Shown in pieces: positions 2,686 through 58,788 of a stretch of DNA of 64,000 bases (position 1 is its first letter; every line of letters starts with the position of its first letter). The DNA is from Spironucleus salmonicida (Eukaryota): positions 682,001 through 746,000 of the forward strand of contig NC_090600.1 of assembly GCF_000497125.1 (NCBI RefSeq), given 5' to 3'. The translations under genes were made by a program, and so were the position numbers. A model generated the notes under the pieces. That model saw only the letters and a program-made list of their open reading frames with translations. It was not told where the DNA came from and ran no database searches.

Positions 2686-2782
2686 GGTGATTAATCTTGT
2701 CTAAAAATATATAAGTATTAGATATATACATGTTCACTATTTATACCAACAAATAAAGCTTAGGATCTCTTAAATATATTAA

Positions 2783-31717: not shown

Positions 31718-32407
31718 TCACTGTCTAACGTAGACGCCGCAGTCGGGGACGATGACGCTGGGAGGGCAGTTGGTGTCGGGGATGACGCAGTCATCGCAGT
31801 TCTCGAGGCCGCACTTGAAGATGAAGTTGGGTCTGGTGGCGAGGCCGGACTCGCAGCTGAGGTCGGCGTTGCATTGAACGTGAACCTCGATGAGGAACTT
31901 GAGGGCGACGAAGCCGGTGGGGATGGTGCCGGTAAGCTGGTTGCAGGCTAAGTGGAGCTCCTTGAGGAAGAGCAGGTTGCCCATGCAAGTAGGGATGGCG
32001 CCGGTGATGTCGTTGTCGCTCATGTAGACGAACTGGACAAAGGCCAGGTTGCAGATGCACTGTGGGATAGCACCAGTGATGCCGGCATTGTCGGCCTGGA
32101 GGTACTGGAGGCTTCTGAGAGTACAGAATGAGGCGGGGATGGCAGTATTCATCTTCTGGTCGTTCATGTACAGGGACTTCAGGACTGGGAAGGAATCAAA
32201 AACATCGGCGAGCTGGCCCGTGAGCCCGAAGCCGCTAAGGTCGAGCCCCACGATGTAGCCCTGGGAATTGCAGGTCACGCCGGCCCAGGCGCACACAGAG
32301 GCGCCGGTGTTCCAGCCGACGGAGCCTTTCCAGCTCGCGCCGCCGTTGGCCGCGTATATAGCTTCGAGCGCTTGGCGCTGCGTGAGGACTGCCAGGATGG
32401 AAATCAT
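31718..32407 (-). CDS. CWP: Cyst wall protein (LRR plus Cys-rich C-terminus), 229 aa
   Basis: Short hydrophobic N-terminus, then QRQALEAIYAANGGASW..C.W.GVTC..LDLS.FGLTG, tandem LRRs (LQYLQ..AGITG.IP.C.C.L; FLKELHL.CNQL.G.IP) and a Cys-rich tail. Closely resembles Giardia CWP1/2. Confidence 0.95.
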   Translation of the reverse strand: MISILAVLTQRQALEAIYAANGGASWKGSVGWNTGASVCAWAGVTCNSQGYIVGLDLSGFGLTGQLADVFDSFPVLKSLYMNDQKMNTAIPASFCTLRSLQYLQADNAGITGAIPQCICNLAFVQFVYMSDNDITGAIPTCMGNLLFLKELHLACNQLTGTIPTGFVALKFLIEVHVQCNADLSCESGLATRPNFIFKCGLENCDDCVIPDTNCPPSVIVPDCGVYVRQ

Positions 32408-34041
32408 TGAGGGAAGGGAATCCGAGTAGGGGCGCGTAGGGTCGAGGTTCGCAGAGGGACGCGGCTTTTATGTATTGTAGTATCGGTGATGGCGACGCCC
32501 TCTGCCCATGTGCCTATGAATTGCATGCACGCCACCGCCTCGCTGAGTAGGAAAGAGATGGGCCGGTGCGAAGCATGGAGAATAGAAGATTTAGGCTGCG
32601 CATAATAAGATTAGAGGTCAGACAACAGCCTTAAGCTAAGCCACCGGCCATAGAAGAATTGCGAACGGGTTTGTTCATTGGAGTTTGCATTAAATCTCAT
32701 TTTGTAACCCATCCTAGTAGAACTTTACTCTCCGGAGTGCTCTCACCATCAATGACGGTACTGTTAGTCGGATATCACACTGCCGGTGCAACTACTAGAT
32801 GCCCGTAATCCGATCCAAACATTTATGTGCCGCCCTCAGCACTACACGTTAATTTTTAAAAGTTCCCATTCGCTCTGTAGGTTTCCTTTTTAGAGGTAGA
32901 GACTTTAAAGGCCACAGACCGTCCACCCCACTCGAAGTTACTCTATGAATATATACGGGCCAAACTGTTTGACGAGAACTATACGACCTTAAGCGGATTA
33001 TTTTCGCATTTGTAGGTGCCTCTAAAGCAAAACCGTGAACCTATCCTAGAGAAATTGCTGCGAATCAGTCGCTGTGTCTAGTTGGTTAGAAGAAGATGCT
33101 CATTGTAGTGCATCGGGCCAGTATATATTGGCAGTTACTCGGCATTCTAAACTTCACTGCTAGTCGTTCATATCTAGGTTTCCGGTGATTTAGTAAGAGC
33201 TAGGACATCTGCCAATTGATAATTTACATTCTTGCGCACTGTTTATTAGTGCCGGCTGTACTAAATTTTATTATAGAAATACAATATATGGATGTACGTA
33301 TTTTACTTTTAAAAGCGGGTTAGTTTTTCTAGTAAATGCTGAAATTAAGTTAATTTAAGCGCTTACTCCCTGTATGCCACTTGCACTACTCGCAACTGCT
33401 CTGGATACAAAATGTAAGTCTGAAGCATTAGAAGATATCTGCGCGCTAATATGAGTTATTTGCGGACAATTCAATTTAAATTTGTCTCTTTAACTTTTAT
33501 CCAAATTGTGCTGGAAATAAAAATTTAAAAATAGATCCTAGACCTCCGGCAGTTTCCTTGACACATGCCAACAGTAAAATACACTGATTGCTAGGTCTGT
33601 GCTATTAGCATATTCATATTAAGACAAGTACGTGTACTACTTCGTAGGCTATATACTGTCTAGCCTATGAATATAATGTAAAGGAGATAGGAAAACCAGT
33701 AGTAGACATTAGAGTACGTCAGGTTATCCACTTTTGATGTTGAAATAACACGGGTGGCGTATTCTTTGAATATTATACAATTCTTAAGATAACACCTATT
33801 ATTGAAGGATGTGTAAAAAGTCATTTTTACTAGAAAAACAAACTAAATCTTGAATAAGGTTTGACAACCTATACGAAAAATTACCTAATATCTTCGACGA
33901 AAGTATTAATAGGCAATGCAGATTTGAAATAGAAGATGGTATCGTCCATAAACTTAGGAGGTGATGGATCCTTTAATATAAAATAGAAGGAGTAAACTAA
34001 CTATAAGATAATGTAATAAAATTATTAATATTATAATCTGA

Positions 34042-34536
34042 TCATTTGTGCCCTGGTAATATTACTCTTTTTCGAGTTTTTGATACTGTTGCAAACTCCT
34101 TTGCTGAGAATCGACGTGGTATCTAATCAAACAGAATAGAATCCGATTCAGAAGCAGGATCCATAACACCAATTGTATTATGGACGGTAAAAATCTTTCT
34201 CCACTTGGCTACTTCTATTCTTTGCTGTTCCTACTTTCGTTCTAAGGCTTTCAACCGTGAGATGGCAACCATATCTTCGTGACCAAATTCCTTGGGAATA
34301 TCCATCGAGATATGGTTTAATCGCTTAGCAGGACGGATCTTAAGCATAAATCCTAATGTTTGAAGTCCGTTTTGTTTTAATAGGCGTTCTGGATCATCCA
34401 TATCGAAGAAGCCAAATAATGAAGACGAGAGCTTTGTATTAATACAAAAATTTGATATAACTCCGTATTTAGAAAAGAACTGAGTAAGAAGTTCTTCATT
34501 AATCTATGCTGGAACACCTCCGAAGTAGAGTCTCAT
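34042..34536 (-). CDS. RRM-domain protein, 164 aa (mirror of 36317..36811)
   Basis: Reverse-complement copy in the left arm of IR2. Confidence 0.8.
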
Positions 34537-34551
34537 TCGAAGTGGTAAAAG

Positions 34552-34625
34552 TAGCTGCAGTGAGGATTGAACTCACGACCCCTAGCTTATGAGACTAATG
34601 CTCTAACCGACTGAGCTATGCAGCC
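34552..34625 (-). tRNA. trnM: tRNA-Met(CAT), elongator type
   Basis: Mirror of 36228..36301. Confidence 0.93.
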
Positions 34626-34858
34626 ATATCTTAACATTATAAATAATTACATATATGTGTGGTCGGATTCAGTAAAATTTAGTTGTCATATAATTACTCC
34701 ACTAATTAATAAAAATATAAGATACGAGCAGACTAGAAATATCTCATGATAGAACAGTTGCTATATCTGTCATTAAAACTACAATACTAGGTAGATAAAG
34801 CTGACTAGTTTTTTAAATCTACTTTATTGTAATACCCAAAATAAATTAAATCATCATA

Positions 34859-35827
34859 TCACTATTATGGAGGAGGCATCATAGTGGGAACCATCATCAT
34901 TGGCACCTGAGTACCATTAGGCATCTGCATCATAAAAACTTACTACATATTAGGCATTGGCATCATTTAGGGATACATTCCTTACATCATACCAGGCATC
35001 ATTTAAGGCATTCCTGGCATCATTTACGGCATAGGTGGCATCATACCAGGCATCATTTAAGGCATTCCTGGCATCATTTAAGGCATAGGTGGCATCATAC
35101 CTGGTATCATTGGAGGCATAGCTTACTGGTTGAAACACATTGCTGGTTCAGGAATTTATACTTATGGTTAAGGTGCAATAACTTCAGGATCTTCAATTTA
35201 AACTTTAACTTAAATATGTTCGTGCTGTTCTTTCTTAACTGTACTTTTTTTGGTTGGCTCGGCTTTTTCTAAAGTTGGTTCTGTTATTTCAGATTTTTCA
35301 GCATTCCTCTAAGCTTTCTTTTATACTTACTTAGCTTTTTTCTCTGCAGCTTTAATCTTCTTCATTTCCTCAACAGCAATTCTATTTTAACGTTCCTCTT
35401 CTGTTTCAACATATTCTACATCAGGTTTAATTATACCACTTACTTTCTATTCAGGAACAATCTCGATGATATCGTTATAAGTTTCTAAGCCTTCTTTGAT
35501 TTCATCTTTAATTAAAAGTCCAGAATTAAATGTTAAAACTACTTGATTAGATTTACGTTATTTGTGTCCTCCAAATCTAGCATTTGTAGCAGTCTTCCAG
35601 GGTTTAAACTCACCATCTATCATATGATCTGCTGTTTTATCAATATCATAATCATATTATTACAAAGCAGTTACACAATCATCAAAACTAAATTTCAAAG
35701 ACATTTATTTAAGAATTAAATGTAAGGAGTTTACAGATTCCTATTACATTTCAGAAAGCTAATAGCGTTTTGGAGCTGCAGGCTTCTTATCATTATTAGG
35801 ATGAGTTTTAACATATGACTTAGGCAT
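34859..35827 (-). CDS. UBA/CUE-like N-terminal domain protein with a charged middle and an M/P/Q/G-rich tail (UBAP2/Def1-like layout), 322 aa
   Basis: Code-6 ORF MPKSYVKTHP..FSFDDCVTALQQYDYDIDKTADHMIDGEFKPWKTA..(GMMPPMPQMMPGMPQMMP)x2..PPPQQ*. Ends TAA TAG TGA. Confidence 0.8.
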
Positions 35828-36227
35828 ACACAAAGTGGAATGGGGGAAAGGAAATTTAATTTACATAATTAATAATATAATCAATATAATAATATATAAT
35901 GTAAAACTAATTTTTTTAGTACTTCTTCTTGTCTAATGGTACTCAGGTGCCAATGATGATGGTTCCCACTATGATGCCTCCTCCATAATAGTGATATGAT
36001 GATTTAATTTATTTTGGGTATTACAATAAAGTAGATTTAAAAAACTAGTCAGCTTTATCTACCTAGTATTGTAGTTTTAATGACAGATATAGCAACTGTT
36101 CTATCATGAGATATTTCTAGTCTGCTCGTATCTTATATTTTTATTAATTAGTGGAGTAATTATATGACAACTAAATTTTACTGAATCCGACCACACATAT
36201 ATGTAATTATTTATAATGTTAAGATAT

Positions 36228-36301
36228 GGCTGCATAGCTCAGTCGGTTAGAGCATTAGTCTCATAAGCTAGGGGTCGTGAGTTCAATCCTCACTGCAGCT
36301 A
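36228..36301 (+). tRNA. trnM: tRNA-Met(CAT), elongator type
   Basis: Cloverleaf: acceptor GGCTGCA/TGCAGCT, D stem GCTC/GAGC, anticodon loop CT-CAT-AA, T stem GTGAG-TTCAATC-CTCAC, followed by TTTT. Lacks initiator hallmarks (A1-U72, three G-C pairs in the anticodon stem). Confidence 0.93.
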
Positions 36302-36316
36302 CTTTTACCACTTCGA

Positions 36317-36811
36317 ATGAGACTCTACTTCGGAGGTGTTCCAGCATAGATTAATGAAGAACTTCTTACTCAGTTCTTTTCTAAATACGGAGTTATATCA
36401 AATTTTTGTATTAATACAAAGCTCTCGTCTTCATTATTTGGCTTCTTCGATATGGATGATCCAGAACGCCTATTAAAACAAAACGGACTTCAAACATTAG
36501 GATTTATGCTTAAGATCCGTCCTGCTAAGCGATTAAACCATATCTCGATGGATATTCCCAAGGAATTTGGTCACGAAGATATGGTTGCCATCTCACGGTT
36601 GAAAGCCTTAGAACGAAAGTAGGAACAGCAAAGAATAGAAGTAGCCAAGTGGAGAAAGATTTTTACCGTCCATAATACAATTGGTGTTATGGATCCTGCT
36701 TCTGAATCGGATTCTATTCTGTTTGATTAGATACCACGTCGATTCTCAGCAAAGGAGTTTGCAACAGTATCAAAAACTCGAAAAAGAGTAATATTACCAG
36801 GGCACAAATGA
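36317..36811 (+). CDS. RRM-domain protein, 164 aa
   Basis: MRLYFGGVPAQINEELLTQFFSKYGVISNFCINTKLSSSLFGFFDM contains RNP2-like LYFGGV and RNP1-like LFGFFDM. Open to TGA in code 6. Confidence 0.8.
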
Positions 36812-38445
36812 TCAGATTATAATATTAATAATTTTATTACATTATCTTATAGTTAGTTTACTCCTTCTATTTTATATTAAAGGATCCATCACCTCCTAAG
36901 TTTATGGACGATACCATCTTCTATTTCAAATCTGCATTGCCTATTAATACTTTCGTCGAAGATATTAGGTAATTTTTCGTATAGGTTGTCAAACCTTATT
37001 CAAGATTTAGTTTGTTTTTCTAGTAAAAATGACTTTTTACACATCCTTCAATAATAGGTGTTATCTTAAGAATTGTATAATATTCAAAGAATACGCCACC
37101 CGTGTTATTTCAACATCAAAAGTGGATAACCTGACGTACTCTAATGTCTACTACTGGTTTTCCTATCTCCTTTACATTATATTCATAGGCTAGACAGTAT
37201 ATAGCCTACGAAGTAGTACACGTACTTGTCTTAATATGAATATGCTAATAGCACAGACCTAGCAATCAGTGTATTTTACTGTTGGCATGTGTCAAGGAAA
37301 CTGCCGGAGGTCTAGGATCTATTTTTAAATTTTTATTTCCAGCACAATTTGGATAAAAGTTAAAGAGACAAATTTAAATTGAATTGTCCGCAAATAACTC
37401 ATATTAGCGCGCAGATATCTTCTAATGCTTCAGACTTACATTTTGTATCCAGAGCAGTTGCGAGTAGTGCAAGTGGCATACAGGGAGTAAGCGCTTAAAT
37501 TAACTTAATTTCAGCATTTACTAGAAAAACTAACCCGCTTTTAAAAGTAAAATACGTACATCCATATATTGTATTTCTATAATAAAATTTAGTACAGCCG
37601 GCACTAATAAACAGTGCGCAAGAATGTAAATTATCAATTGGCAGATGTCCTAGCTCTTACTAAATCACCGGAAACCTAGATATGAACGACTAGCAGTGAA
37701 GTTTAGAATGCCGAGTAACTGCCAATATATACTGGCCCGATGCACTACAATGAGCATCTTCTTCTAACCAACTAGACACAGCGACTGATTCGCAGCAATT
37801 TCTCTAGGATAGGTTCACGGTTTTGCTTTAGAGGCACCTACAAATGCGAAAATAATCCGCTTAAGGTCGTATAGTTCTCGTCAAACAGTTTGGCCCGTAT
37901 ATATTCATAGAGTAACTTCGAGTGGGGTGGACGGTCTGTGGCCTTTAAAGTCTCTACCTCTAAAAAGGAAACCTACAGAGCGAATGGGAACTTTTAAAAA
38001 TTAACGTGTAGTGCTGAGGGCGGCACATAAATGTTTGGATCGGATTACGGGCATCTAGTAGTTGCACCGGCAGTGTGATATCCGACTAACAGTACCGTCA
38101 TTGATGGTGAGAGCACTCCGGAGAGTAAAGTTCTACTAGGATGGGTTACAAAATGAGATTTAATGCAAACTCCAATGAACAAACCCGTTCGCAATTCTTC
38201 TATGGCCGGTGGCTTAGCTTAAGGCTGTTGTCTGACCTCTAATCTTATTATGCGCAGCCTAAATCTTCTATTCTCCATGCTTCGCACCGGCCCATCTCTT
38301 TCCTACTCAGCGAGGCGGTGGCGTGCATGCAATTCATAGGCACATGGGCAGAGGGCGTCGCCATCACCGATACTACAATACATAAAAGCCGCGTCCCTCT
38401 GCGAACCTCGACCCTACGCGCCCCTACTCGGATTCCCTTCCCTCA

Positions 38446-39135
38446 ATGATTTCCATCCTGGCAGTCCTCACGCAGCGCCAAGCGCTCGAAGCTATATACG
38501 CGGCCAACGGCGGCGCGAGCTGGAAAGGCTCCGTCGGCTGGAACACCGGCGCCTCTGTGTGCGCCTGGGCCGGCGTGACCTGCAATTCCCAGGGCTACAT
38601 CGTGGGGCTCGACCTTAGCGGCTTCGGGCTCACGGGCCAGCTCGCCGATGTTTTTGATTCCTTCCCAGTCCTGAAGTCCCTGTACATGAACGACCAGAAG
38701 ATGAATACTGCCATCCCCGCCTCATTCTGTACTCTCAGAAGCCTCCAGTACCTCCAGGCCGACAATGCCGGCATCACTGGTGCTATCCCACAGTGCATCT
38801 GCAACCTGGCCTTTGTCCAGTTCGTCTACATGAGCGACAACGACATCACCGGCGCCATCCCTACTTGCATGGGCAACCTGCTCTTCCTCAAGGAGCTCCA
38901 CTTAGCCTGCAACCAGCTTACCGGCACCATCCCCACCGGCTTCGTCGCCCTCAAGTTCCTCATCGAGGTTCACGTTCAATGCAACGCCGACCTCAGCTGC
39001 GAGTCCGGCCTCGCCACCAGACCCAACTTCATCTTCAAGTGCGGCCTCGAGAACTGCGATGACTGCGTCATCCCCGACACCAACTGCCCTCCCAGCGTCA
39101 TCGTCCCCGACTGCGGCGTCTACGTTAGACAGTGA
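38446..39135 (+). CDS. CWP: Cyst wall protein, second identical copy
   Basis: Identical 229-aa translation. Pyrimidine-rich leader ttcccttccctcaATG, ends cAGTGA. Confidence 0.95.
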   Translation: MISILAVLTQRQALEAIYAANGGASWKGSVGWNTGASVCAWAGVTCNSQGYIVGLDLSGFGLTGQLADVFDSFPVLKSLYMNDQKMNTAIPASFCTLRSLQYLQADNAGITGAIPQCICNLAFVQFVYMSDNDITGAIPTCMGNLLFLKELHLACNQLTGTIPTGFVALKFLIEVHVQCNADLSCESGLATRPNFIFKCGLENCDDCVIPDTNCPPSVIVPDCGVYVRQ

Positions 39136-39683
39136 GTCCCTTGCTCTATATTTACTTCACATAATAGTCTCTATGATATAAAATATCACCCAGTTATCAT
39201 AGTTGTTATTCTTAGGGTAAAACTAACCACAACTTGGCAATACAAGCCTTACCTCTACTCTAAACGCATACGTCTAACTAAATATATAATCTTTCAATTC
39301 CATATGTTAAGAATTCAGAAATTGAGACTACTCTGTTTCAAAATTCTTGATAACCAGAGTTGGAAGACGTATTTACCCATTATTGCTAATATATTTCAAA
39401 TCTAAAATAATAAACTTGGTATGCCAAACTTGGACATCTTGTGATCAAGCCTTCCAACTAGTGGAAGATCGGCTGCACCAAGTTAACCTCGACATCGTGT
39501 GAGACTATCATACCAACTTTTGCCTAGCATTATATTGATGGTATTAATAGTTCATCTAGCCTTCTTTGCTCTATATGCTAGTATTTTTACTTCGGGCATG
39601 ATGGTTTCTCACGGTGCCAACCTCAAGCCGCTAGCGATTCTGGCATCCATCACACAATACTAGTAACGAAGTGACTACTTTGC

Positions 39684-41255
39684 TCACAACATCCTCTTAT
39701 TCTCCTGGATCTTAATGTACACCATGAGACCCCCGAAGGAGATGAAAAATACGACTGCGATGACCACCTGAAGTGAGACTATAACAACTAGGTAAATATC
39801 TGTAGAAAAGCTAACTGCGAATTACTTAAAGTCTGTGCGCTGGCCCTGCAGGCTCTCCATGCCTATGAGCACGTAGTCTGGATTGCTGACGTAGAACTTT
39901 GCATACTTGGACAGCACCGCAGAGCAGTCTCCCCCACTAAAAGCATCGCCGCAGCTCATGCACAAGTCCTACTGCACTAGGCTATAGTTAATCTCCAGGT
40001 TCTTCCGCATCGTAAACACTGGCAAAAGTGTACCGAGGAACGGCTAGACTTTTTCTTGCACCCACATGCCTTTAAATTCAACAGGGACAGTAGCGGAAAA
40101 GGTACACGACGTCATCAGGAAGTTGAACTTCACCTTAGCACAGACCTACTTCGAGCTCACGGTGAAATTTATGTAGTTGAAGCAAGAGACCGTGGAGTTA
40201 AGAGAAAAACTCGCCTCTTGTTGCAGCTGGGAGGAATGATCAAACAACGACAGGAAATAATGCGCTATGAACGGGTCTTTTGCGGCAAACATCTCCTCCA
40301 GGATATCCTGGTCGAAATAAAACGAGGCTTGCGGAAAATACAGCGTCTCTGCCACTGTGAAGTTTTTCTTCTGCCCGTACGAAAAGTTCCCCGAAACGAG
40401 GTTGATCTCCATGGTGAGAATCACGTCATCGAGCCCGAAACCACACAACTTGAACTCATCTGCCAGGAAGCTAGTGATGGCCGCCTGCTACGTGACAAAA
40501 ACTGTGATCCCTAGCTTTTCCATGCAGCTTTGGTACCTAGGCGTGTAGTAGTTCTGCACCCCGCCCTGCACTGATACCTGAATATCGCTGACCACGTAGT
40601 TGATCACCAGCTTCATAGGCATGGTCCGGAACTCCCGAAAGTCCTCTATGAACTTGTTGCATGCCTGCACCTCCTCTTCCGTGAAAACCCCCACGCAGGG
40701 CCTCTCGAACTATGTCGTGGCCAGGTGGTTGTAGTCCTCCGAGTCGTAGTTGCCCCCGGACTTGATGGTTATCGAGTTCCAAACGCCGGATATGTTTTGG
40801 TACATCAAGGTGGCCTGGACCTGCTTGGCGAATTGGCAGGTGGCCGGAACGACGATTATGGCGAACCCGATGTTGCCGAGATCGGCAGAGTAGCCCAGCG
40901 ACACCGACTCCCAGCAGTTTGTGAGGTTCTGGTTCGTGAACTGGATTTTGGTGAAGGAGCTTTGTAGCACCTCGCCCGACTGCATCGTCACCGAGAACTG
41001 GCCCATCGTCTGCGAAAGCGCCGTTGCAAAAATGGCGGGGTCGACCCTTTTAGTGAATACCAGCTCGTCCTTGTGGAACACCACGTCCTGCGGTGCGAGA
41101 GTGGTCGACGGGCCTAGCTGCAGGGAAATGGCCACATTGAGCTTGTCCAGCTCATCGCATGCCTCTGGATATATTATGAGCTACAGGTCGTTCGTCTGTC
41201 CAATTCCTGACAGGGTGTTGTTGCGAAGGGAGCAGTCCAGAAGCGTGAGCAGCAT
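39684..41255 (-). CDS. Hypothetical type-I membrane protein, 523 aa (mirror of 29598..31169)
   Basis: Reverse-complement copy in the right arm of IR2. Confidence 0.85.
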
Positions 41256-42143
41256 TTAGCAAATAGTTTTTGTGCTAATATGGTATAATAATGAGTATAA
41301 TTGTTCCATTAAAAAGTATTATTTAGGTGCACGTTGTGAAATATCGCAGCGACGCGGTCCAGGGTACTATTCACGAAACATAAGGTATGCACCAGCTTAG
41401 AAAAACCAAGCTTCGCAAATGTCAATGCACCCAACTGCACCCCCATGGCTAGGCCTAGCCGTGCTCCGCGAAAAACCAGTATCTCGCGCATCCCAATCGC
41501 CCGCTCCGCCCAAGTCGTTAATGTTTCAGCCTTGCGCCGCTCCTGCTTTGGCCAAGTTCGCACGGGCGAGGATGCTAACTGGGCAGTTGATGGCAAACTT
41601 GGCCTCAAAGACACCAGAGGAGACTGCATGGCGCACGGCACCTTGTCCCCTCAATTTTGTGCAGGGAACGGTATCGGATGCTGCTATAGGAGCCCTGCGT
41701 ATGCACGAGATATGCGAGATATGCGAGGCCTACTGGTCCTTCATGATTGCCCCGAGCAAATCTTAGGATTTTAGGCAACGTGATACCATGTAAAACTTGG
41801 CCATTTGCGTGAAACGGAGCGGTCGCAACAGGCGCTCTTGGCCGCAGTCTTAGCACTTACCAAACCCACCTCAGCCGGGAACTACACTATAGGGCGAGGC
41901 GCGTGCACCTGTCGCGGATTTACTATGGTACTGTTCGTTGCGCAGAGTTTCTAATGCACTGCTACCCAAGTCCCCTGACGCTGCCAGTGACTGGTTCACC
42001 GGTGCGCCCGACTCGTTCTATCGGCGGTACCAGATACCACTTAGCACGCGATTTAAAGCCATCATGTTCTAAAAGTAAATACTATAATCGTAAAAATAAC
42101 GCAAATTGCTAAAAATATATACAAATATTACAAAATAATAAAC

Positions 42144-45100
42144 TCATATATAGTCCGTCTCAGATGCTTCATGCTATATGTCTTCAATACTATCAAACTT
42201 GTTAATTTATCTATCAAACTAGATGGCTGCAACCCGAAGATTTCTAACCTAAGAAACATCTAGATTTCGTACCTATTTAGTAATTTTAACATCTTTACTA
42301 AATGAAGGCATAACTTACTAGCTCAAAATAAAAGAGCGAGAAGATTAAAGTTTTTAAATACCGTTGCGAAAACTTCCAATACTCTATAAAGAACTTAAGT
42401 TGACCTTAGATGAATTTTATAGAACTCGAGTTGAATTTAAAACACCTAGACCAATTCCTGTATCTTTATTATATGAAAATTATTTCATCGATTAGCAACC
42501 CGTAGTAGGGTCTAGTTTGGACAATACTTGCAGAGAATATGCATTTTGTAGATACTTTTTCTTGTTTAGTTTATCTGAAATAACAAGATGCACGCCGTTG
42601 TACATTTTTTTCCCGTCTTATTTCATTGAATTATGGACTTCATTATCTCTTCTGGAGTAACAATTGAAAATAATTAAAGCTGCTATCACCAGTATCAATG
42701 AAAATGTAGTAACAATAACTGTAAATAAAGATCCTGGAACAAAATTAACATTGCCTTCATGATAATTTCCTACGGAAACAAAAAATTCAACCCAAATTGC
42801 AGAAGTAATGGAATTAATTGCAAACTCAACTGCTGAAATTTTGAGCATGACAATAACCATAACCACATTAAAAATAACCTATGTTCCTAAGCAGAAAATA
42901 AATACTTTAGTATTAAATACTGCAGCAATAATCCTTTAAGGTTCAATCATAAAAACAACTCCATAAAGAAGAAAATTGGCGAATGCTAGCCTGAGAATTG
43001 CCATAAGTCCTTCGTACTGGGATAAAACAACCTCATAAACATAAAATTGCGAACCTAAAATAATAATATCCACACCAGTCATAATTTGTCCTAAAGATAT
43101 GGTTCCCGCAGAAACACCAGAAAAGAAGTTTGGTGATGTTGCTTCGCCAATTGCGAATGCTACTTAAAATATGATTGGCAGTGAAAGAGCTATGAAAATA
43201 GTAATAATTTAGATGTTCCTAAATTTGTATCCCGCAAAGAAAATGAACATCAGCAGCACGACTGGAGGTGAAGCCAATTTATAAATTGACTGACTGACCT
43301 CCAGCTACTCAGGGACCAGGAAATAGGCTATAGAGTGGAATACAAGCTCAATCAGCGCAACAGATAAAAATATGAAATAATCCTACCTGTGGTTATAGCT
43401 GAAAAATTTATATTTAGGTAGCGCCGCGATGCAGTAGAATACTACAAATGGCATAGATGAGAACAAATTTGTAGATGCCTGCATATAAAAGTCGTTGATA
43501 TACACGTCTTAAAATGCTATAATAATAGCTAAAATTTGAGCCAAAATGACATAAATAAGCCGTTTTGAGATAACTCGAAGGTTTCGTTTTAGGAATAGTA
43601 TCAGCTGATTTTATTTAAGTTTAGATAAGCAGAACGGAATTGTTATACAAATCGCAATAATAAAGATAAGAATTAACGGGAAAACATAAATTTTCCATTG
43701 TCCTTTCAATATTTCCTTAATGCACATCTCATTATCTAGCAAATAACCACTATTGCAGGCATTGCATTTTGGTGTATCCTCTTCAATATAGCAAACTCCA
43801 ATATCGTGCAGTACCATTTCGCAGCAGCAGAGAGCGAATCGTTAGTCAATGGCACAATTACACTGAGTGAACCCCTTGACACAAGAATTACAGGTATCAC
43901 CAGACCATCCCAGTTCGCAGGCTTAACATTTTATTAAATTTTGCGAGATAATACACTCGCCACGGTACCGTGCCATTTCTGGAAGAATATGCTACCAACA
44001 ACTGCCGTTAATCAACTGAAGCCCCGTAGTACAGTCAAAGCAAGTTTCTTAGGAGATGCTGGCTAGCAGGCAGTCTTCGTCGTTGCAGATGATAAAATTG
44101 TCTTAAATATAGCATCTTCCAGGGCTCATCGGAGCGTGAACACGGCATTCGTCAAAAGTGAAATCTAGGGAGCAATAGGAACAATTGAACGACAAATTTG
44201 TTGATTCACATTCTTAGCAAAACACTTCTTAGGTGGCCTCAGACTCACCACAATCTCCAGGTTTTATACAGTACGAGCCTAAAATTGATGTCGGGGCTTC
44301 ACATTCAAAGCAGTTCCCTGTGTAGCCCACAGCGCAGGTTAGACATAAAATAGTAGCTCCAGCATACCAGCACTCTCCCTGAACACAAGATCCACATATG
44401 GCAACGCACGCATCCGTCCCAAGAACAAGCTAATGCTCGTCATCTAAAGTTTTTGTATCTATAAACCCAGGTGCACAGATAGTACATTTTCCTCCTGGAT
44501 CCTTCTGATATCCTAGTGCACATGAATCGCAGTAAGGTAATGCATATTATATCTTACATTATCGACAAAACATATCAGTTACATCATTTGCGTTGTAAAA
44601 GCAATCTCCTTCTTCTATATTAGCTGAAACATAGCAATTAAAATTTATTTCTAGTTCTGCACATGATTAACATACTTAACCTGTAAATCCAGGATAACAT
44701 GTACAAACTGTAATTTACCCATTCTTTATACATTCTCCGTTAGGATTCGGTACTCTAATAACACAGTGACCTTCGAATAAAATATATCCCACATTACACG
44801 AAATGCAATTATACGAAGATTAATTATAATAGCATTCTCCAGGACATGAATTTGTAATACATCTATCATAACAAACCTAATCAATTAGGATACGATCTTC
44901 ATTGCATTTTAAACATACTACGGAACTGGAATCATCTATATAACATTAATCATCAGTAACCTATGGAAGGCACTATATATTCACTAATACAAATCCATCT
45001 AAGCAAAGGGAACATTGAGTTCCTATCAGACCATTATTACAAGATATACAAACAATTTCATCCTTTACAATATAGCAATCACCTTAGACACAGTGTGGAC

Positions 45101-48100
45101 AACCTTAATAGCAACCGTCCAAAATACTAATATAACCGCTAGAGGAATCGCACTCAATACATGATATACCAATATACCCTGGTAAACATATATTACAAGT
45201 AATTTCTTCTTCATTTATATAACATTATTTACCATTACAATCTTGACACATTTCAAAACAAAAATCGCCAACTTTAGTAAACCCATCATTACAATAATCG
45301 CATTAATCTCCTTAATATCCATCATTACATAAAATACATTCAATTTTTTTTAAAAGATTCTCATAGCAATCTCCATTGCAATCTTCACACTTTAAGACGC
45401 AACCGTTATTGATCTTTAAATAAGGTTCAACACAATCAGTACAACGGAACCCTGAATAAGGAAAAATACATCCTTAACAAATATTTCCACTATCACTTTC
45501 AATAAATTTAACATTCTGGCAGTCACACGTGATGCCATTACAATCACAAAGTGGACAAGTTAATATACAAATATTTGATTTTGATTTGTCGCTTAATGTA
45601 CTATTTAGCTTATATATAGATGCATAATGGATATTTCCAACTAGTTATATTTATACAAAATCTATCGTATTAAATGGTAGTGCCAAACTACAATCATCTA
45701 AGCAATAACCTTTGTATCTATATAAAATATCTTTACATTTACATTCTTTATCAATGCAATCTGTCTAGTTACAATCTCCAGGATGTATGCAAAGAAAATC
45801 TTCGCATTACTCACCATTGAACCCTGCATCACAAGTAATACCCGTTTAATTACATTTTCCATTATATATTTCAGGACATTAAAAACAACCCTCATATTAA
45901 AGGAAGTAGTTATCTTAACATTAACAAATATTAGATACACAAATAAACATTGAATCGCAAGAATTTACCGAACAATCCTTTGTATCACATTTTACAACTA
46001 AATCAATATACCCTGGAATACATTAACAAGAATTATCTGGTAAGCAAGTTCCAAAAATACAAATATCTTTATCACATTTTTAATTGCATTTTTTATCAAT
46101 CAAAACGTAATTTTCATCACATTTTAAGCAAATAATATCGGTACCAATATAAAGACAAATCCCATTCCCACCGAAAAACTAATTTCTACATTCCCAGTCA
46201 TAAAAAATCAATTGGTCTGGACACTAATTACATTTATTTCCAGAAACTGGAATGATACAAGAGCTACAGATGAAAGCACATATATTAGGATCTAGACTGT
46301 CACATTATGCTAAAAACCAACATTCTCCACTTAAACATACTTAACACTTTTGCATACACTAAAATTTATTGAGTTCATAACCTATTTCACATTAATCACA
46401 CATTTACCCTGTATGTGGAAATTAACAATCTTAACATTTCCAGACATCTGATATTATACCAGATTCATAATAACACTAATCACCAAATTCACAAAAGCCA
46501 TTTATGCATGCCAATTTACAGAGACCATCAATCCTTTCTAAACCAGATATACAATTTTCACAGCTAAGTCCAGTAGAATATTCTCCACACTAACATATTC
46601 CACCTTCACAGTCCATACTATTACAATCAGATTTTACAAAGCAACGAATGCTATCACAAGGAGAACTAATGCTTACAAATGATGGGTAACAGGCACAAAA
46701 ATCATTTACACAAACACCATTATTACAAAGTTTTTAACAATTATTTTGACATGTGAGGAATGGTGAGGGATTACAAATTTAGGTATTAAAACATTAAGTA
46801 CATAGTGAAGTAGTACAAAATTGACCTGAATAAAATTAAGAACATTAACATCCTAATTCGCTACAAGTTCCAGATCCACATGAAGCAAGTTCGCAATCTA
46901 AATTTTCACAATTTTAACCTGTATAATTAGTTTCACAAATAGAAACCTAGGAATTCTTAAAACCATGACAATCAAAGGCACATAAATTCGGCATATCTAA
47001 TAATATTGCCATCTACTGAGAAAGTTAGAATGGGTACATTAATGAATTAATTTCTAATGAATTATCTGCTGAAAATCCATAAAAATCTACAAGATGTACC
47101 ATTTATTAATTTAAATCATCTAATATCCAAAACTCAGACTTAAGAAGTTTTTATAAAAAGGATGGAGACTTTAACTAAGCTTCTGAAACACAATTAGAAC
47201 CACATTTTTTACCTCCTAGATTGAGTTCATATACATTTTCATCATTCATGAGAGCTGGTAAAAGACGGACTATACCATGTGTTTTAGAATATCTTGAATA
47301 CCCAATGACATTTCTAATTTTATTTCCTAATATAGCTGTATAAATCATATAAGAAACATTTCCTTTTTTATCATTAATTATTTGGATATTTATCATTCCA
47401 TTATAAACATCCGACGCTTAGATATGTTTGACTATGCCAGAAATTACCCATCTACCTTATGCTTACACTGGCCCTGTAATAATGAAATATTCTACCCTAG
47501 ATGAGTGCAATTTTTCAGAAAATCCTGAATAGTAAGACCACAGCGTACCTGACTAAATTAATACTATATTTTATTAAATAACAATATTACGAAATAAACA
47601 ATCTTTTGACTACTAAACTGCAGCACTCAGTGACACCTGCTTGTTAAAAGCAACGTTTAAATCAATATGAACTACAACGTTGCTAACTTATGATTTTTCT
47701 AAATTTGTCACAATCCCTCCAACCCAACATGCTTTAGAGGTCTTAGTATCTGATCTATATCTGAATTTAATCTGAATTTAATTCATAGTTGCTGGTTTAG
47801 CACTCTGGCCGATTACTCCACCATATCTACTCTTACCACCGTTACCGGTCAAATCAATTTCAACATAAATCTGGTTCAAAATAGATGATGAATCTTTGGC
47901 GAATACGCCAGCTACAAAATTATCCCCAGTGCAGCTTACTACCAAATTAAGAATAACTGAGCAATTATACACCTGCAAAGTATCCCCTTTAGACGAAATT
48001 CCGCCAACCATAGTGTCCTCTGCAATAATGGTGCAGTTTAACAATACAATCGCATTTTGGACAGCACAGTTTTTACAAACACCAGCTATTTCTACACCTT

Positions 48101-48938
48101 CACCTACGTTAATAAGCGCTCTTATCAAAATTTGTATCATCTTTATTTGCCCCTATCCGGTACTGGATACACCAAAAATGTTTATCGAATTTTTAGATGT
48201 AATTTAGACTTCAATGTGCTGAATTACATTAACTCCGTGGTCAACGCAAAGACCATATATGGACTCAGCCTCTGAATAAATCTTAATTACTAAATTCTGA
48301 ACATTTAAACCTATTTTTTTACAACCACCCGAGACATGTTCAGAGCCACCTTTATCGTTAATCAGTATTGTGCCCTGAAAGGCTCCATTCAGATTTTCAG
48401 AAATTCCGTAAATAAGCATAATTTTTTATTGATTTGTGATGTTTATTTGAATTTATTTAACATTATTTTAAGCAGAATTGTCGAATTAGCTGCTTAAGCC
48501 TGACAATTTATTATTGAATCTTGTATTAAGAATAATATTGATTTAAGCATTAAATAGGTTAGAATTCGATATCTAACCTATTGGAGAGAGAAGCCTTTAG
48601 TCAGATTTCGACGTTATCTTCATATAGATATTATCTATACTTCCAGATGTTACTCTAGCTAGTACGTTGATCGAATAATCTGACTGCACAAAAATTTATA
48701 TGTCGCGTAGGCTGCCTTAAAATCTATCAAAAAGCTTTGAATTAGAGTTTTTATACTCAAGGTACAGATAGTTTTTTGCTCCTGAGAAGGTACCCTTGAA
48801 AAACTAAACCTCCTGGGATATTACATCAAAGGTAAGGTTAGTATTTAAAACAAAATAGTCATTAATATTTTTGTTCATTAGGCCAAAATCTTCATGCGTG
48901 TTTATCATTAGAACCTATAGTGTAGCGAAGGCTATCAT
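42144..48938 (-). CDS. Giant cysteine-rich membrane protein with a C-terminal multi-pass (DMT-like) domain, 2264 aa
   Basis: Track fragments 48204, 47778, 47175, 43611 and 42618 share one frame. A manual scan found no in-frame TGA between ATG 48938 and TGA 42144. CxxC/CxC repeats at about 43720-47000 and about 11 hydrophobic segments at about 42660-43700. Confidence 0.85.
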
Positions 48939-49206
48939 TAGTTTATTATGGACTACCTAGTATTATATAGAATTATAAACAATTACTATTAAAGAAAAAA
49001 TATATTATAAGTTAGTACTAAATACCAACTTCTAAAATTAAAGGTGTAGAAAAATTAAATTTTATATCATTATTATACAATATATATTATAATTAACCAT
49101 TCAATAAAAATAATTTAGTTATTACTATCTTTGACCCACGATTGCAATTTGAAGCGCACCAAAACCGCCCCTACCCCAACAACCAAGCAAAGTGAAAAAA
49201 CCAGCC

Positions 49207-56988: not shown

Positions 56989-58788
56989 ATGCAAATTCTA
57001 GCCCCAACCTGTCTTCTTATAAGTTCAATTTCTACATGCAGCCCATTATAAGATAACGCAATATTAAGTTTCCCCTTCAAGTGTCCAGTAATTAATAAAT
57101 TAAAATATCTTAATGCAAACGGCAATACAATTTTAAATTGTGATCTGCAACAGGTTGAAGTGCTTGATAATGGTATTATTGCCGAAATTTAAGTAAACAG
57201 AATGCCTTAAAAAATTATTAATTCTCGTTTTCTAGCATCGTATAGTGATTCTACCGATAGAAATATTAACTTTTTTAATGTAATTTTTATAACATTTCCA
57301 GGCTTTATAGACTGTCTTAGTTGCTCTTGGGATAACGGATTTGGTGATCTGACTAAAAATTAAATTAGTAATGGAGAATTTGTGTTGGATGATAATTTTG
57401 ATTCATTAACAATTATTAATAGCAGTTTTATCTTAACAGGAGTGGTTAAGAATCTCAAAGTAATAGGCAGCATTGGTGTGGTAAATAATGTACAAACGAT
57501 AGAATCTAATAACTCAATTATTAAACTCTATAATTCTTCTAGTTCAACAATAGGTAATCTTATAAATATTAATAATTCAAAATTAACATTAGAGCTTTAT
57601 AATAGAAGTATTCAACCAATAACTAATATTACAAATAATCATAACATTTAAATTGACATTTCAGGATACATTTTTGCTGACTAATTCAGTGTTATTTAAA
57701 ATGTTATTAATAATGGTTAGATGCTAATTCAAACAAATTTAGATGTGGAAGGAGTTGTGTTGAAAGAGTATTTTACTATATACAACTATACGTCCCTACA
57801 ACCTGAAGGTACCTTGGTGATGACCCATACCTTAACTTTTAGTTCGTTTAGAGGTGATGCCTCGGGAAACATACTTTGCTCACCAATAAATATCATGAAA
57901 GACACATAAAACACTAAAATTGTATCCTACTTTAATATCTCAAGAAAAGGCTCCCTAACCTACTAAAGCTTCATTCCAGTTTCAGTCGCCTTTCAAGGCA
58001 CCGCCAATGCCAAAATCTCAGTAACAAGCAATTTTAGCGATTTTCTCGCCCCGATAACCGCGAGTGGGGTTACCAACAACGGCACCCAGGTGGATTTCTC
58101 CCAGTCGTACAGTGTTCTAGTAAAACCGTAAAGCGTATTTTATTTCTTTAAAGGCGTCGCTGACGGCTGCTCCGACGTGCAGTCTTGCGGCGCGCCGAAC
58201 GACCTCCCCACGATAGAATTCACTGGTCTTCAGCCCGCCTGGCAGAACGCAATCTCGCTACCTGACTACAAATTTAGCGCATCGGACCTCTCCGTTTCAC
58301 TTTTCATTCCATTTTCCGCTACTTTCAGCCCCCCGGAGCGTGTCACCGTCCCGTGCGTGGCATCCTGCACCTGCCCCGCGGCGTAGACCTTCAATTTGAA
58401 TCTTCTGCGCTGCGTGGACGTCGTAAATCCGATCAAAAGCTCGCTCCAGACATCATACATCTGCGGTTTCGTCCTACTTTTGATTCTAGTAGCAGCAGTC
58501 TTTGCGATTTTTGTGGTTTTCAAGGCCCAGAAACCGCAATTTCATGCCGTGGAGTCTCCGCTTACGACAGGGCGCCAGCTGCAGCCTGTGCGCTTCTCGA
58601 CGGTACCGCTCTCGCAAAAGTAGGGCAACAGTATTCGAGCCGACGAGGAGACGTTCAATTTGTCAGTGGCGTCATCGGCGCAGAACAGCATTTTGCTCGA
58701 CTCGGACCACAACGCCGGCAGTGGGCCGGACACGGGTTTCGATGGCGATGCCGCTGACTTCATGCAGCAGCTTGACGCAGCAAAGTGA
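56989..58788 (+). CDS. Hypothetical type-I membrane protein, 599 aa
   Basis: Fragments 57382, 57721, 58177 and 58396 are in one frame. Asn/Ile-rich beta-type ectodomain, TM YICGFVLLLILVAAVFAIFVVF, ends aAGTGA. Confidence 0.8.

What the first reader, a model, noticed from the sequence alone, without database searches (positions are those of the whole stretch)
42144..48938. 2264-aa Cys-rich ectodomain fused to a DMT/SLC35-like transporter domain: candidate transceptor
Seen: this ORF is hidden from the standard-code track. It has about 650 aa of Gly/Asn/Ile-rich beta-type sequence (VGGIS, VAGVF, YGGVIG) and about 1100 aa of CxxC/CxC repeats. One TM follows, then about 10 further hydrophobic segments and a roughly 170-aa hydrophilic tail. 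Segments SQSIYKLASPPVVLLMFIFFAGYKFRNIQIITIFIAL and VMLKISAVEFAINSITSAIW..FSLILVIAALIIFN recall the two halves of DMT-superfamily transporters (SLC35/CRT/EamA). Established: diplomonad Cys-rich surface proteins such as VSPs are typically single-pass with short tails. Inference: a receptor-transporter fusion for ligand capture and uptake, or for sensing. The DMT assignment is by eye only.
Basis: partly seen in the sequence, partly recalled or inferred. Interest (0 to 1): 0.8.

Follow-up and report, generated by a model that had tools for sequence, protein, structure and literature searches.

The report
Giant cysteine-rich surface protein with transporter-fold domain
A fish-parasite gene encodes a huge cysteine-rich surface-type protein permanently joined to a ten-helix membrane domain that is predicted to fold like a small-molecule transporter, a domain combination we did not find described in the papers we searched; its function is still untested.

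Summary
Window 42144-48938 (-) is one open frame of 2264 codons under NCBI table 6. It has 104 in-frame TAA/TAG codons and only the terminal TGA, against about 49 TGA expected. Its order is: short hydrophobic N-terminus, a roughly 600-aa all-beta region, about 1090 aa of CxxC/CxC repeats, one TM helix, ten more TM helices, and a 168-aa tail.

The named relatives are all Spironucleus salmonicida proteins labelled only "Transmembrane domain-containing protein". Six full-length paralogs carry the same fusion. The ten-helix domain is their best conserved part and aligns almost without gaps.

AlphaFold2 models the domain at pLDDT 78 and pTM 0.74. Foldseek matches it only to DMT-superfamily transporters (LicB, PfCRT, Vrg4, CST, TPT, SLC35B1) at probability 1.00, then drops sharply. 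Language-model features agree.

Every sequence-level test failed: Pfam, NCBIfam, PDB searches, hhalign against E. coli DMT paralogs, and the internal-repeat test.

So the fusion and the DMT fold are supported. Family membership by sequence is not, and the "transceptor" function is untested.

The parts
42144..48938 (-). Whole coding sequence, 2264 codons plus a TGA stop, read with TAA/TAG = Gln
   Evidence: Open under table 6. Identical to database protein P0003. The only in-frame TGA is the terminator, against about 49 expected.
48897..48938 (-). Short hydrophobic N-terminus (MIAFATLQVLMINT), a putative signal-like segment
   Evidence: The paralog N-termini share a short hydrophobic start followed by a polar S/T-H-E-type stretch. 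No signal-peptide predictor was available, so the assignment is an inference.
47139..48896 (-). Cys-poor, Asn/Gly/Ile/Gln-rich all-beta region, likely a beta-solenoid
   Evidence: The AlphaFold2 model (pLDDT 65.9, pTM 0.65) is almost all strands in a recurring pattern. Foldseek returns only weak hits, mostly right-handed beta-helix lyases and adhesins, with 0 at E<=0.001. The Atlas gives a weak lead to GLUG / Peptidase_M26_N. Pfam finds nothing.
43722..46988 (-). Cys-rich repeat region of about 1090 aa, with 12-17 Cys per 100 aa and modules of the type CxxCxxG[FY]...C
   Evidence: Cys density. Across the whole protein there are 37 CxxC and 11 CxC, nearly all in this region. Module listing. Pfam gives only sub-threshold EGF-type hits: EGF_TEN E 6.7e-4 at 19.8 bits against a cut-off of 65.
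43626..43691 (-). TM0, the single membrane-spanning helix after the ectodomain, followed by a Lys/Arg-rich linker
   Evidence: It has the highest hydropathy peak, 2.87. Seven Lys/Arg lie in the next 25 residues. This fits a cytosolic linker by the positive-inside rule, which is an inference.
42651..43610 (-). Ten-helix domain with a predicted DMT-superfamily fold
   Evidence: AlphaFold2 gives pLDDT 78.4, pTM 0.74 and 10 TM helices. Foldseek against the PDB gives LicB, PfCRT, Vrg4, CST, TPT and SLC35B1 at probability 1.00, and non-DMT hits only at probability <=0.38. Atlas features score 0.97 to CRT-like, NST and SLC35F clusters. It is the best conserved domain among the paralogs.
42147..42650 (-). 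168-aa hydrophilic Ser/Gln/Asn-rich C-terminal tail ending in an acidic patch, predicted cytosolic
   Evidence: Translation. Low pLDDT at its start. Paralog tails are 15-30% identical (47% for the closest pair), and 5 of the 6 printed end in acidic, hydrophobic-containing stretches.

Best explanation
This is one real gene of the diplomonad Spironucleus salmonicida. It belongs to a small paralogous family of very large membrane proteins.

Shown here:
- The domain order is: short hydrophobic N-terminus, all-beta region, long Cys-rich repeat region, one TM helix, a divergent ten-helix domain predicted to have the DMT-superfamily transporter fold, and a roughly 170-aa tail.
- This order is conserved in the family.
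- The ten-helix domain is the most conserved part.

Inferred:
- The beta and Cys-rich part faces outside the cell or into a lumen.
- TM0 brings the chain into the cytosol, so the ten-helix domain has both ends cytosolic, as in canonical DMT carriers.
- The domain still works as an alternating-access carrier for a small polar solute.
- The giant ectodomain binds an extracellular or host ligand or surface. This would place or regulate the carrier where that ligand is.

The substrate is unknown.
For: The single ORF is not due to chance.

The fusion is conserved. Of the 13 phmmer hits at E<=1e-3 among 1.84 billion representatives, 5 are long proteins of 1457-2672 aa, counting the window's own, and each has the domain at its C-terminal end. 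The other 8 are fragments of 132-386 aa. Cluster look-ups add P0018, P0023 and P0028, giving six full-length fused paralogs. Fragments P0014 and P0009 also run from a Cys module through TM0 into the domain.

The domain is under constraint. It aligns across 305 to 308 shared columns in every pair, against 305 residues of the window protein, and is 41, 40, 49 and 77% identical in the closest pairs. The beta region gives 20, 19, 19 and 43% in those pairs, and the tail 23, 21, 30 and 47%. Columns conserved in at least 85% of sequences that lie within modelled helices include polar residues: Q25, Q34, D35, Q134, R207, N248, N266, S270 and N289.

Fold evidence is AlphaFold2 at pLDDT 78.4 and pTM 0.74 with 10 helices. 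All 24 Foldseek rows printed through rank 36 are at probability >=0.99. Of these, 23 are named LicB, PfCRT, nucleotide-sugar, CMP-sialic acid or triose-phosphate transporters, or SLC35B1. The 24th, 5i20, is labelled only 'protein'. The best hit has E 1.8e-4 and target TM-score 0.72. From rank 39 the probability is <=0.38 and TM-score <=0.25.

Atlas features score 0.97 with 204-213 of 256 shared, to clusters carrying CRT-like, Nuc_sug_transp, EamA and SLC35F.

A Lys/Arg-rich stretch after TM0 fits a cytosolic linker.
Against: No sequence-level link to any DMT family was found.
- Pfam gives 0 families at E<=1 for the whole protein and nothing DMT-like at E<=10 for the pieces.
- 0 of 8 aligned members match a DMT model in Pfam or NCBIfam, and 0 of 6 relatives do in Pfam.
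- phmmer against the PDB gives 0 hits at E<=10.
- The profile against the PDB puts a CMP-sialic acid transporter on top, but only at E 0.48.
- hhalign against six E. coli DMT paralogs (E 0.094) is no better than MFS (0.13) or LysE (0.11) controls.
- The expected 5+5 internal repeat is not detectable (E 0.32).

The fold call rests on two learned predictors and a shallow alignment of 13 sequences, mostly paralogs. No data on transcripts, localisation or transport were seen. No signal-peptide predictor was run. PMC3916229 (section 15) reports finding no recognisable signal peptides in this organism's Cys-rich membrane proteins. The ectodomain's ligand is unknown. The beta-region model has only moderate confidence, and its fold hits are not significant.
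Confidence: 0.45

Rival explanations
1. The protein is a transporter-like sensor. The ten-helix domain has lost or reduced transport and instead passes on ectodomain engagement or solute occupancy through the long cytosolic tail. From my own knowledge, this is how the yeast glucose sensors Snf3/Rgt2 work. It is also the role proposed for the multi-pass cysteine repeat modular proteins of Toxoplasma and Tetrahymena.
For: There is a 168-aa cytosolic tail after the last helix. The ectodomain is very large and adhesin-like. Apicomplexan and ciliate CRMPs have the same overall layout of Cys-rich or EGF-like ectodomain, multi-pass C-terminal domain and cytosolic C-terminus. They are argued to sense host contact (passages read in PMC9670195, and PMC9815656).
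Against: The tail is the least conserved part after the beta region, at 15-30% identity, and no motif is shared by all paralogs. Conserved polar residues inside helices fit a working binding cavity just as well. No signalling domain was found by Pfam. Homology to apicomplexan CRMPs was not tested, and their helix count differs: nine there against eleven here.
Confidence: 0.25
2. The ten-helix domain is only a membrane anchor or an oligomerisation scaffold, a pseudo-transporter. It would serve an adhesin or variable surface protein whose biology lies entirely in the ectodomain.
For: The ectodomain resembles the organism's abundant single-pass Cys-rich membrane proteins (section 15 of PMC3916229; motif counts). 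The TM domains of Toxoplasma CRMPs are reported to be predicted to heterodimerise (passage in PMC9815656). No DMT sequence signature survives.
Against: A single helix suffices as an anchor in the 125 CRMP-1 and 195 CRMP-2 proteins of this organism. Here, however, the ten-helix domain is the best conserved domain and aligns almost without gaps. It also keeps polar residues within helices.
Confidence: 0.2
3. The long ORF is an artefact. Either two neighbouring genes (a Cys-rich membrane protein and a separate transporter) are read through because TGA is the only stop, or there is an assembly or gene-model error.
For: Under table 6 long spurious ORFs are common: one search lists other-frame ORFs of up to 457 aa inside the interval, and a 720-aa ORF overlaps its low end. 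The gene also sits 70 bp from a 6.1-kb inverted repeat. No transcript data were examined here.
Against: The same continuous architecture occurs in six full-length paralogs at 22-77% identity in the domain, and in an unnamed fragment, P0014. The frame has 0 internal TGA against about 49 expected. The published reannotation states that RNA-seq reads guided manual structural annotation and that only four introns are known (passage in PMC9509377). That annotation keeps one gene (P0016, 2308 aa).
Confidence: 0.03

Closest known systems
DMT (drug/metabolite transporter) superfamily carriers: PfCRT / CRT-like, SLC35 nucleotide-sugar transporters (Vrg4, CST), LicB, the triose-phosphate translocator and SLC35B1
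   Same: Ten TM helices and the same predicted fold. Target-normalised TM-scores are 0.4-0.72 for the listed DMT hits, against <=0.25 for the non-DMT hits. Language-model features agree. Both ends are inferred to be cytosolic, as in these carriers.
   Different: No significant sequence match to any DMT family, and no detectable internal repeat. It is preceded by an extra TM helix and a 1740-aa ectodomain, and followed by a 168-aa tail. I know of no DMT carrier with such an ectodomain, and searches found none. That is recall plus three text searches, not proof of absence.
S. salmonicida cysteine-rich membrane proteins (CRMP-1, CRMP-2) and Giardia VSP / HCMP
   Same: A Cys-rich ectodomain with many CxxC and CxC motifs followed by a TM helix, in the same organism or group.
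   Different: Those classes are defined by one C-terminal TM helix. CRMP-1 and VSP also carry a short tail with KKXKK or CRGKA. This family has eleven helices, no such motif in the window protein, a long tail, a Cys-poor beta region of about 600 aa, and only 8.1% Cys overall. The >10% Cys and <100-aa-after-TM filters of PMC11437800 would exclude it.
Apicomplexan and ciliate cysteine repeat modular proteins (Plasmodium CRMP1-4, Toxoplasma CRMPa/b, Tetrahymena CRMPs)
   Same: The overall plan is shared: a large modular Cys-rich or EGF-like ectodomain, a C-terminal multi-pass domain and a cytosolic C-terminus. The domain key of the architecture figure in PMC9815656 also lists a parallel beta-helix repeat.
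   Different: Nine helices (five in Tetrahymena) are reported there, and they are described as GPCR-like rather than DMT-like. Homology could not be tested, because no CRMP sequence could be fetched with the tools left.
Transporter-like receptors (yeast Snf3/Rgt2; Patched/NPC1), from my own knowledge and not from a call
   Same: A carrier fold is combined with receptor-type extensions. Examples are the long cytosolic tail of Snf3/Rgt2 and the large extracellular domains of Patched/NPC1.
   Different: The folds differ: MFS and RND rather than DMT. There is no sequence relation, and no signalling evidence here.

Membership tests
DMT superfamily | Ten TM helices arranged as five plus five | tested here: met
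   DSSP on the AlphaFold2 model gives ten membrane-length helices between domain residues 2 and 318. The hydropathy peaks agree. The five-plus-five split itself was not examined.
DMT superfamily | Three-dimensional fold superposable on solved DMT carriers | tested here: met
   Predicted structure only. Foldseek rows through rank 36 are all DMT carriers at probability >=0.99. The best is LicB 7paf, with E 1.8e-4, TM-score 0.61 (query) and 0.72 (target). The next class falls to probability <=0.38.
DMT superfamily | Significant sequence match to a DMT family model (EamA, TPT, Nuc_sug_transp, UAA, CRT-like, SLC35F) | tested here: not met
   There is no DMT family at E<=10 in Pfam or NCBIfam for 8 of 8 aligned members, nor for the window protein. 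None appears at E<=1 for 6 relatives. The PDB profile's best hit is a CMP-sialic acid transporter at E 0.48. hhalign against 6 E. coli DMT paralogs gives E 0.094, against 0.13 and 0.11 for the controls.
DMT superfamily | Two homologous five-helix halves (internal duplication) | tested here: inconclusive
   hhalign of the N-half against the C-half gives E 0.32 and probability 0.2, though the short match pairs helices 2-3 with 7-8 in register.
DMT superfamily | Carrier activity (solute transport or exchange) | not testable with these tools
   This needs a transport assay.
S. salmonicida CRMP-2 / Giardia HCMP-type cysteine-rich membrane proteins | Three or more CxxC/CxC motifs | tested here: met
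   37 CxxC and 11 CxC. The definition is from section 15 of PMC3916229.
S. salmonicida CRMP-2 / Giardia HCMP-type cysteine-rich membrane proteins | A single C-terminal TM domain as the only membrane anchor | tested here: not met
   There are eleven helices and a 168-aa tail after the last one. Named relatives are annotated 'Transmembrane domain-containing protein', not CRMP. Table S4 of that paper, which lists the class members, could not be opened.
CRMP-1 / VSP | C-terminal [KR][KR]X[KR][KR] or CRGKA motif after the TM helix | tested here: not met
   Neither motif occurs in the window protein, P0004 or P0005. P0018 and P0023 have one KKEKK in the tail, far from TM0.
Apicomplexan/ciliate cysteine repeat modular proteins | Conserved core of two EGF-like domains plus the nine-helix domain | not tested
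The helix count differs: 11 here, and 9 there according to PMC9815656.
GLUG / Peptidase_M26_N-type beta repeats (N-terminal region) | Match to the Pfam Glug or Peptidase_M26_N models | tested here: not met
   Pfam lists only CBM_4_9 at E 0.44 for this piece. The Atlas lead scores 0.93 with 147-157 of 256 shared features and recognition 1766. The tool's own guides for a reliable hit are 170 and 2300.

The most novel reading that the evidence does not exclude
This would be a lineage-restricted receptor-carrier. A giant beta-solenoid plus Cys-rich ectodomain captures a host or environmental ligand and directly feeds or gates a covalently attached DMT-fold carrier. It would be the first DMT transporter with a receptor-type ectodomain, and it would have arisen when a diplomonad Cys-rich surface-protein gene fused to a carrier gene.
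Probability: 0.2. Interest if true: 0.8.

Novelty: new variant of a known kind. Interest (0 to 1): 0.6.

Why it matters
Diplomonad Cys-rich surface proteins are treated as single-pass coats used for antigenic variation or protection. This family suggests that some are hard-wired to a conserved carrier-fold module.

If the module transports, it points to a nutrient-uptake or export route in a salmon pathogen. Genome surveys would have missed it. The published transporter census used BLASTP against TCDB and Pfam scores above 25 bits (Methods passage in PMC3916229), and this domain gives no Pfam match.

It also widens the known architectures of the DMT superfamily. And it shows that a ten-helix domain invisible to profile HMMs can be placed by structure prediction.

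The conserved membrane module, next to a variable ectodomain, would be a more stable handle for tagging or antibody work than the ectodomain.

Tried and rejected
1. Word-indexed protein searches gave nothing beyond the query itself.
- Region 1795-2175 of the whole protein at 'near' lengths returned only the window's own entry, 1 of 1475 candidates.
- The domain alignment A2 at 'longer' lengths (only 609-2000 aa searched) returned none of 8000 candidates.
- A2 at 'near' lengths returned only fragment P0012, which is itself a row of A2.
- None of these bridged to a named DMT family.

2. Pfam and NCBIfam, on the whole protein, on its pieces, on relatives and on alignment members, gave no family at or above cut-off.

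3. PDB sequence searches found nothing. The single sequence gave 0 hits at E<=10. The profile gave 8 hits at E<=10, none significant. The top one was a CMP-sialic acid transporter at E 0.48, and the other 7 were unrelated.

4. I ran hhalign of A2 against six E. coli K-12 DMT paralogs (rhtA, eamA, yddG, yedA, rarD, bioP). Controls were MFS, LysE, YedI, MarC, CorA and GlnP. The DMT score (20.3, E 0.094) could not be told apart from MFS (20.0, E 0.13) or LysE (18.7, E 0.11). This test is uninformative.

5. The internal 5+5 repeat test by hhalign was not significant.

6. The N-terminal region has a moderate model, and 0 Foldseek hits at E<=0.001 among 289 at E<=10. I therefore call it only beta-solenoid-like and reject any lyase or protease assignment.

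8. A ciliate origin was considered, since ciliates use the same code. It is rejected because the named relatives are all S. salmonicida and a short [FeFe]-hydrogenase gene lies nearby.

9. An rRNA identity for the 68% GC array was rejected: Rfam found only two tRNAs in the window.

10. Not checked:
- The metagenome contigs and viral contigs collections, which are closed.
- Supplementary tables S4 and S5 of PMC3916229, which are closed. They may list this gene among Cys-rich proteins or transporters.
- Whether the Hexamita, Trepomonas or Giardia proteomes hold a profile-level relative. Only single-sequence phmmer was run, and none of its named hits came from them.
Full report
**What is in the sequence**

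Under NCBI table 6 (TAA and TAG read as Gln), the minus strand of the window carries one open frame from 49100 to 42144, 2318 codons long, with 110 reassigned codons. Under table 11, only two ORFs of at least 100 aa lie inside the finding's interval, of 120 and 103 aa.

From the ATG at 48938 the product has 2264 aa. It is identical to database entry P0003. A second public model, P0016, starts 44 codons upstream.

The frame contains a single TGA, its terminator. About 49 are expected from the strand's base composition, and the other two frames contain 33 and 100. Gln is encoded 74 times by TAA, 30 by TAG, 19 by CAA and 20 by CAG. This includes the quoted peptide strings, the Cys-poor first third and the Cys-rich middle at 12-17 Cys per 100 aa, and the 37 CxxC and 11 CxC motifs.

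**Whose gene it is**

A phmmer search used the ten-helix domain (window 42594-43610, minus strand, 339 aa) against 1.84 billion representative proteins. It found 13 proteins at E<=1e-3, including the window's own.

Exact look-ups show that every named one is from Spironucleus salmonicida. Nearly all are labelled 'Transmembrane domain-containing protein'; one fragment, P0010, is named uncharacterized or hypothetical. Four fragments (P0011 to P0014) are unnamed and were not traced.

A 467-aa [FeFe]-hydrogenase gene at 61277-62680 fits an anaerobic diplomonad (Fe_hyd_lg_C, E 5e-70). No named hit came from Giardia, Hexamita or Trepomonas. Only a single-sequence search was possible, so a profile-level relative is not excluded.

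**Is the fusion real?**

Six full-length proteins share the whole plan:
- the window's gene
- P0004 (2082 aa)
- P0005 (2101 aa)
- P0028 (2100 aa)
- P0018 (2766 aa)
- P0023 (2757 aa)

The first four lie on the same 1.73-Mb contig. Fragment P0014 is only 22-24% identical to the window's domain. It still runs from a terminal Cys module through a single TM helix into the first helices of the domain.

A passage of the reannotation paper PMC9509377 says that RNA-seq reads guided manual structural annotation and that only four introns were known. That annotation keeps a single gene (P0016). I saw no reads myself. The artefact reading is very unlikely but not formally closed.

**What the ten-helix domain is**

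AlphaFold2 was run on an alignment of 13 family sequences (A1). It gave mean pLDDT 78.4, pTM 0.74 and ten membrane-length helices.

Foldseek against the PDB listed 24 rows through rank 36, all at probability >=0.99. Of these, 23 are named as one of:
- the choline importer LicB
- PfCRT
- GDP-mannose or other nucleotide-sugar transporters (Vrg4)
- CMP-sialic acid transporters
- the triose-phosphate translocator
- SLC35B1

The remaining row, 5i20, is labelled only 'protein'. I recall it as a YddG structure. The best match is LicB (7paf) at E 1.8e-4, with TM-scores 0.61 (query) and 0.72 (target). From rank 39 the hits belong to other transporter classes, at probability <=0.38 and TM-score <=0.25. 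That these proteins form the DMT superfamily is established knowledge, not a result of a call.

The ESM Atlas feature search independently put the domain nearest to clusters carrying CRT-like, Nuc_sug_transp, EamA and SLC35F. The scores were 0.96-0.97, with 204-213 of 256 features shared and recognition 2768.

**What failed**

No sequence method links the domain to a DMT family.
- Pfam found nothing at E<=1 for the whole protein, and nothing DMT-like at E<=10 for its four pieces.
- 0 of 8 aligned members matched a DMT model in Pfam or NCBIfam.
- None of 6 relatives had a DMT match in Pfam at E<=1.
- phmmer against PDB sequences gave 0 hits at E<=10.
- The family profile against the PDB put a CMP-sialic acid transporter first, but at E 0.48. 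The other 7 rows were unrelated proteins.
- I fetched six E. coli K-12 DMT paralogs and several non-DMT membrane proteins. hhalign scored the DMT set no better than the controls: E 0.094 against 0.13 for MFS and 0.11 for LysE.
- The two halves of the domain are not detectably similar (E 0.32).

The correct wording is therefore 'predicted DMT fold, no sequence-level family membership'. The fold call rests on two learned predictors and a shallow alignment.

**Constraint on the domain**

In a full-length alignment of five paralogs, the ten-helix domain is the best conserved part among the closer pairs and aligns almost without gaps. Every pair shares 305 to 308 columns, against 305 residues of the window protein. 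Identities for the closest pairs are as follows.

| Domain | Window vs P0004 | Window vs P0005 | P0004 vs P0005 | P0018 vs P0023 |
|---|---|---|---|---|
| Ten-helix domain | 41% | 40% | 49% | 77% |
| Cys-rich region | 37% | 34% | 39% | 54% |
| N-terminal beta region | 20% | 19% | 19% | 43% |
| Tail | 23% | 21% | 30% | 47% |

Between the two subfamilies the ten-helix domain (22-29%) is not better conserved than the Cys-rich region (30-33%).

Columns conserved in at least 85% of sequences include polar residues inside modelled helices. These are Q25, Q34, D35, Q134, R207, N248, N266, S270 and N289, with a conserved N..SA.W stretch in helix 9.

A plain anchor would not need this. The organism's 125 CRMP-1 and 195 CRMP-2 proteins manage with one helix (section 15 of PMC3916229).

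**The ectodomain**

The first 650 aa were modelled with six sequences, at pLDDT 65.9 and pTM 0.65. They form an almost all-strand structure with a recurring pattern of strands.

Foldseek returned 0 matches at E<=0.001. The weak list is dominated by right-handed beta-helix lyases, depolymerases and adhesins. The best is E 6.3e-3, probability 0.28, TM-score about 0.15.

The Atlas pointed weakly to GLUG / Peptidase_M26_N clusters, at score 0.93 with 147-157 of 256 features shared and recognition 1766. Pfam did not confirm this. I call the region beta-solenoid-like and nothing more.

The Cys-rich region consists of modules of the type CxxCxxG[FY]...C, with irregular spacings of 12 to 101 residues apart from one 354-residue gap. 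Pfam gives only sub-threshold EGF-type hits.

**Topology (inferred)**

- The N-terminus is short and hydrophobic in the window protein and the five paralogs printed.
- The many paired Cys suggest an extracytosolic ectodomain.
- TM0 is followed by a stretch with seven Lys/Arg.
- If that linker is cytosolic, the ten-helix domain has both ends in the cytosol, the usual DMT arrangement, and the 168-aa tail is cytosolic.

No predictor for signal peptides or topology was available. PMC3916229 notes that no signal peptides were recognised in this organism's Cys-rich membrane proteins.

**Mechanism**

My best reading (0.45) is a working DMT-type carrier that is permanently tethered to a large ligand- or surface-binding ectodomain. 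What has been demonstrated is the architecture, its conservation and the predicted fold. Orientation, transport and any coupling between the two parts are inferred.

The rivals are:
- a transporter-like sensor that signals through the tail (0.25)
- a pseudo-transporter used as an anchor or assembly platform (0.2)
- an artefact (0.03)

The remainder is left for readings I have not thought of. Nothing here tests it.

**Comparison with what is known**

The published Cys-rich classes of this organism and of other diplomonads are defined by a single TM helix and, in one paper, by more than 10% Cys and fewer than 100 aa after the helix. This family fails those definitions: 8.1% Cys, eleven helices, and no KKXKK or CRGKA motif in the window protein.

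I found no mention of a multi-pass or DMT-type fusion in what I read:
- section 15 and other passages of PMC3916229
- passages of PMC11437800, PMC6397501 and PMC9509377
- the listings of six text searches

The supplementary tables of PMC3916229 could not be opened and might list the gene.

The closest architectural analogue in print is the apicomplexan and ciliate 'cysteine repeat modular protein'. It has an EGF-like or Cys-rich ectodomain, a nine-helix C-terminal domain and a cytosolic C-terminus, and it is proposed to sense host contact for rhoptry discharge (passages of PMC9815656 and PMC9670195). Whether the two are homologous could not be tested.

**Verdict**

The fusion is real and conserved. 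The DMT idea is right at the level of predicted fold and wrong at the level of recognisable family. The function is open.

The proteins are already in public databases but carry no functional annotation. I rate this a new variant of a known kind, with interest 0.6.

Noticed in passing
window 10341-28852: A tandem array of a 1193-bp unit, about 15.5 copies at about 99.9% identity and about 68% GC, in a window that is otherwise mostly 21-52% GC. It has no Rfam family, and the two long ORFs of one repeat unit that I scanned have no Pfam match. A passage of PMC9509377 says duplicated regions of this genome have raised GC. What the unit is remains unexplained.
   Followed up: partly
window 28779-34923 and 35930-42074: A 6.1-kb inverted repeat at 99.94% identity with a spacer of about 1 kb. 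Each arm carries a tRNA-Met gene (34551-34625 minus, 36228-36302 plus). Each arm also carries a 565-aa ORF with a hydrophobic C-terminal end and no Pfam match (29472-31169 plus, 39684-41381 minus). The right arm ends 70 bp downstream of the stop of the gene studied here. The arm ends also hold 74 bp of the tandem-array unit.
   Followed up: partly
window 1-1915 and 2374-4288: A second inverted repeat, 1915 bp at 100% identity, at the left edge of the window.
   Followed up: no
window 34859-35986 (-): An ORF in the spacer of the large inverted repeat, with a Met/Pro/Gln-rich C-terminal part. A 54-bp tandem repeat of 2.5 copies lies at 34985-35119. It has no Pfam match.
   Followed up: no
window 61277-62680 (+): A short 467-aa [FeFe]-hydrogenase with N-terminal ferredoxin-type clusters (Fe_hyd_lg_C, E 5.2e-70).
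   Followed up: no
window 56989-58788 (+) and 58802-60460 (-): Two convergent genes. Each encodes an Asn/Ile/Ser-rich ectodomain, one TM helix and an acidic tail, with no Pfam match. Their composition recalls the beta region of the gene studied here. A relationship was not tested.
   Followed up: no
window 48938-49100: Public gene models disagree on the start, giving 2264 aa (P0003) or 2308 aa (P0016). The first ATG of the open frame would give 2318 aa. The paralog N-termini align from the Met at 48938.
   Followed up: yes
relatives P0017, P0007 and P0018 (S. salmonicida, consecutive accession numbers KAH0576936, KAH0576937 and KAH0576935): Next to the full-length 2766-aa paralog are two partial models. 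One is a 1564-aa copy of the N-terminal part that lacks the membrane domain. The other is a 1457-aa copy of the C-terminal part that includes it. Together they look like a duplicated and split or truncated family member.
   Followed up: no
C-terminal 60 residues of P0003, P0005, P0006, P0018 and P0023: Five of the six tails printed end in an acidic stretch containing hydrophobic residues, for example ...SIEDIQHEASETDYI...DLLDEEDEELVW and ...SDSYLVEMDE. P0004 does not. This may be a sorting signal, but it was not tested.
   Followed up: no
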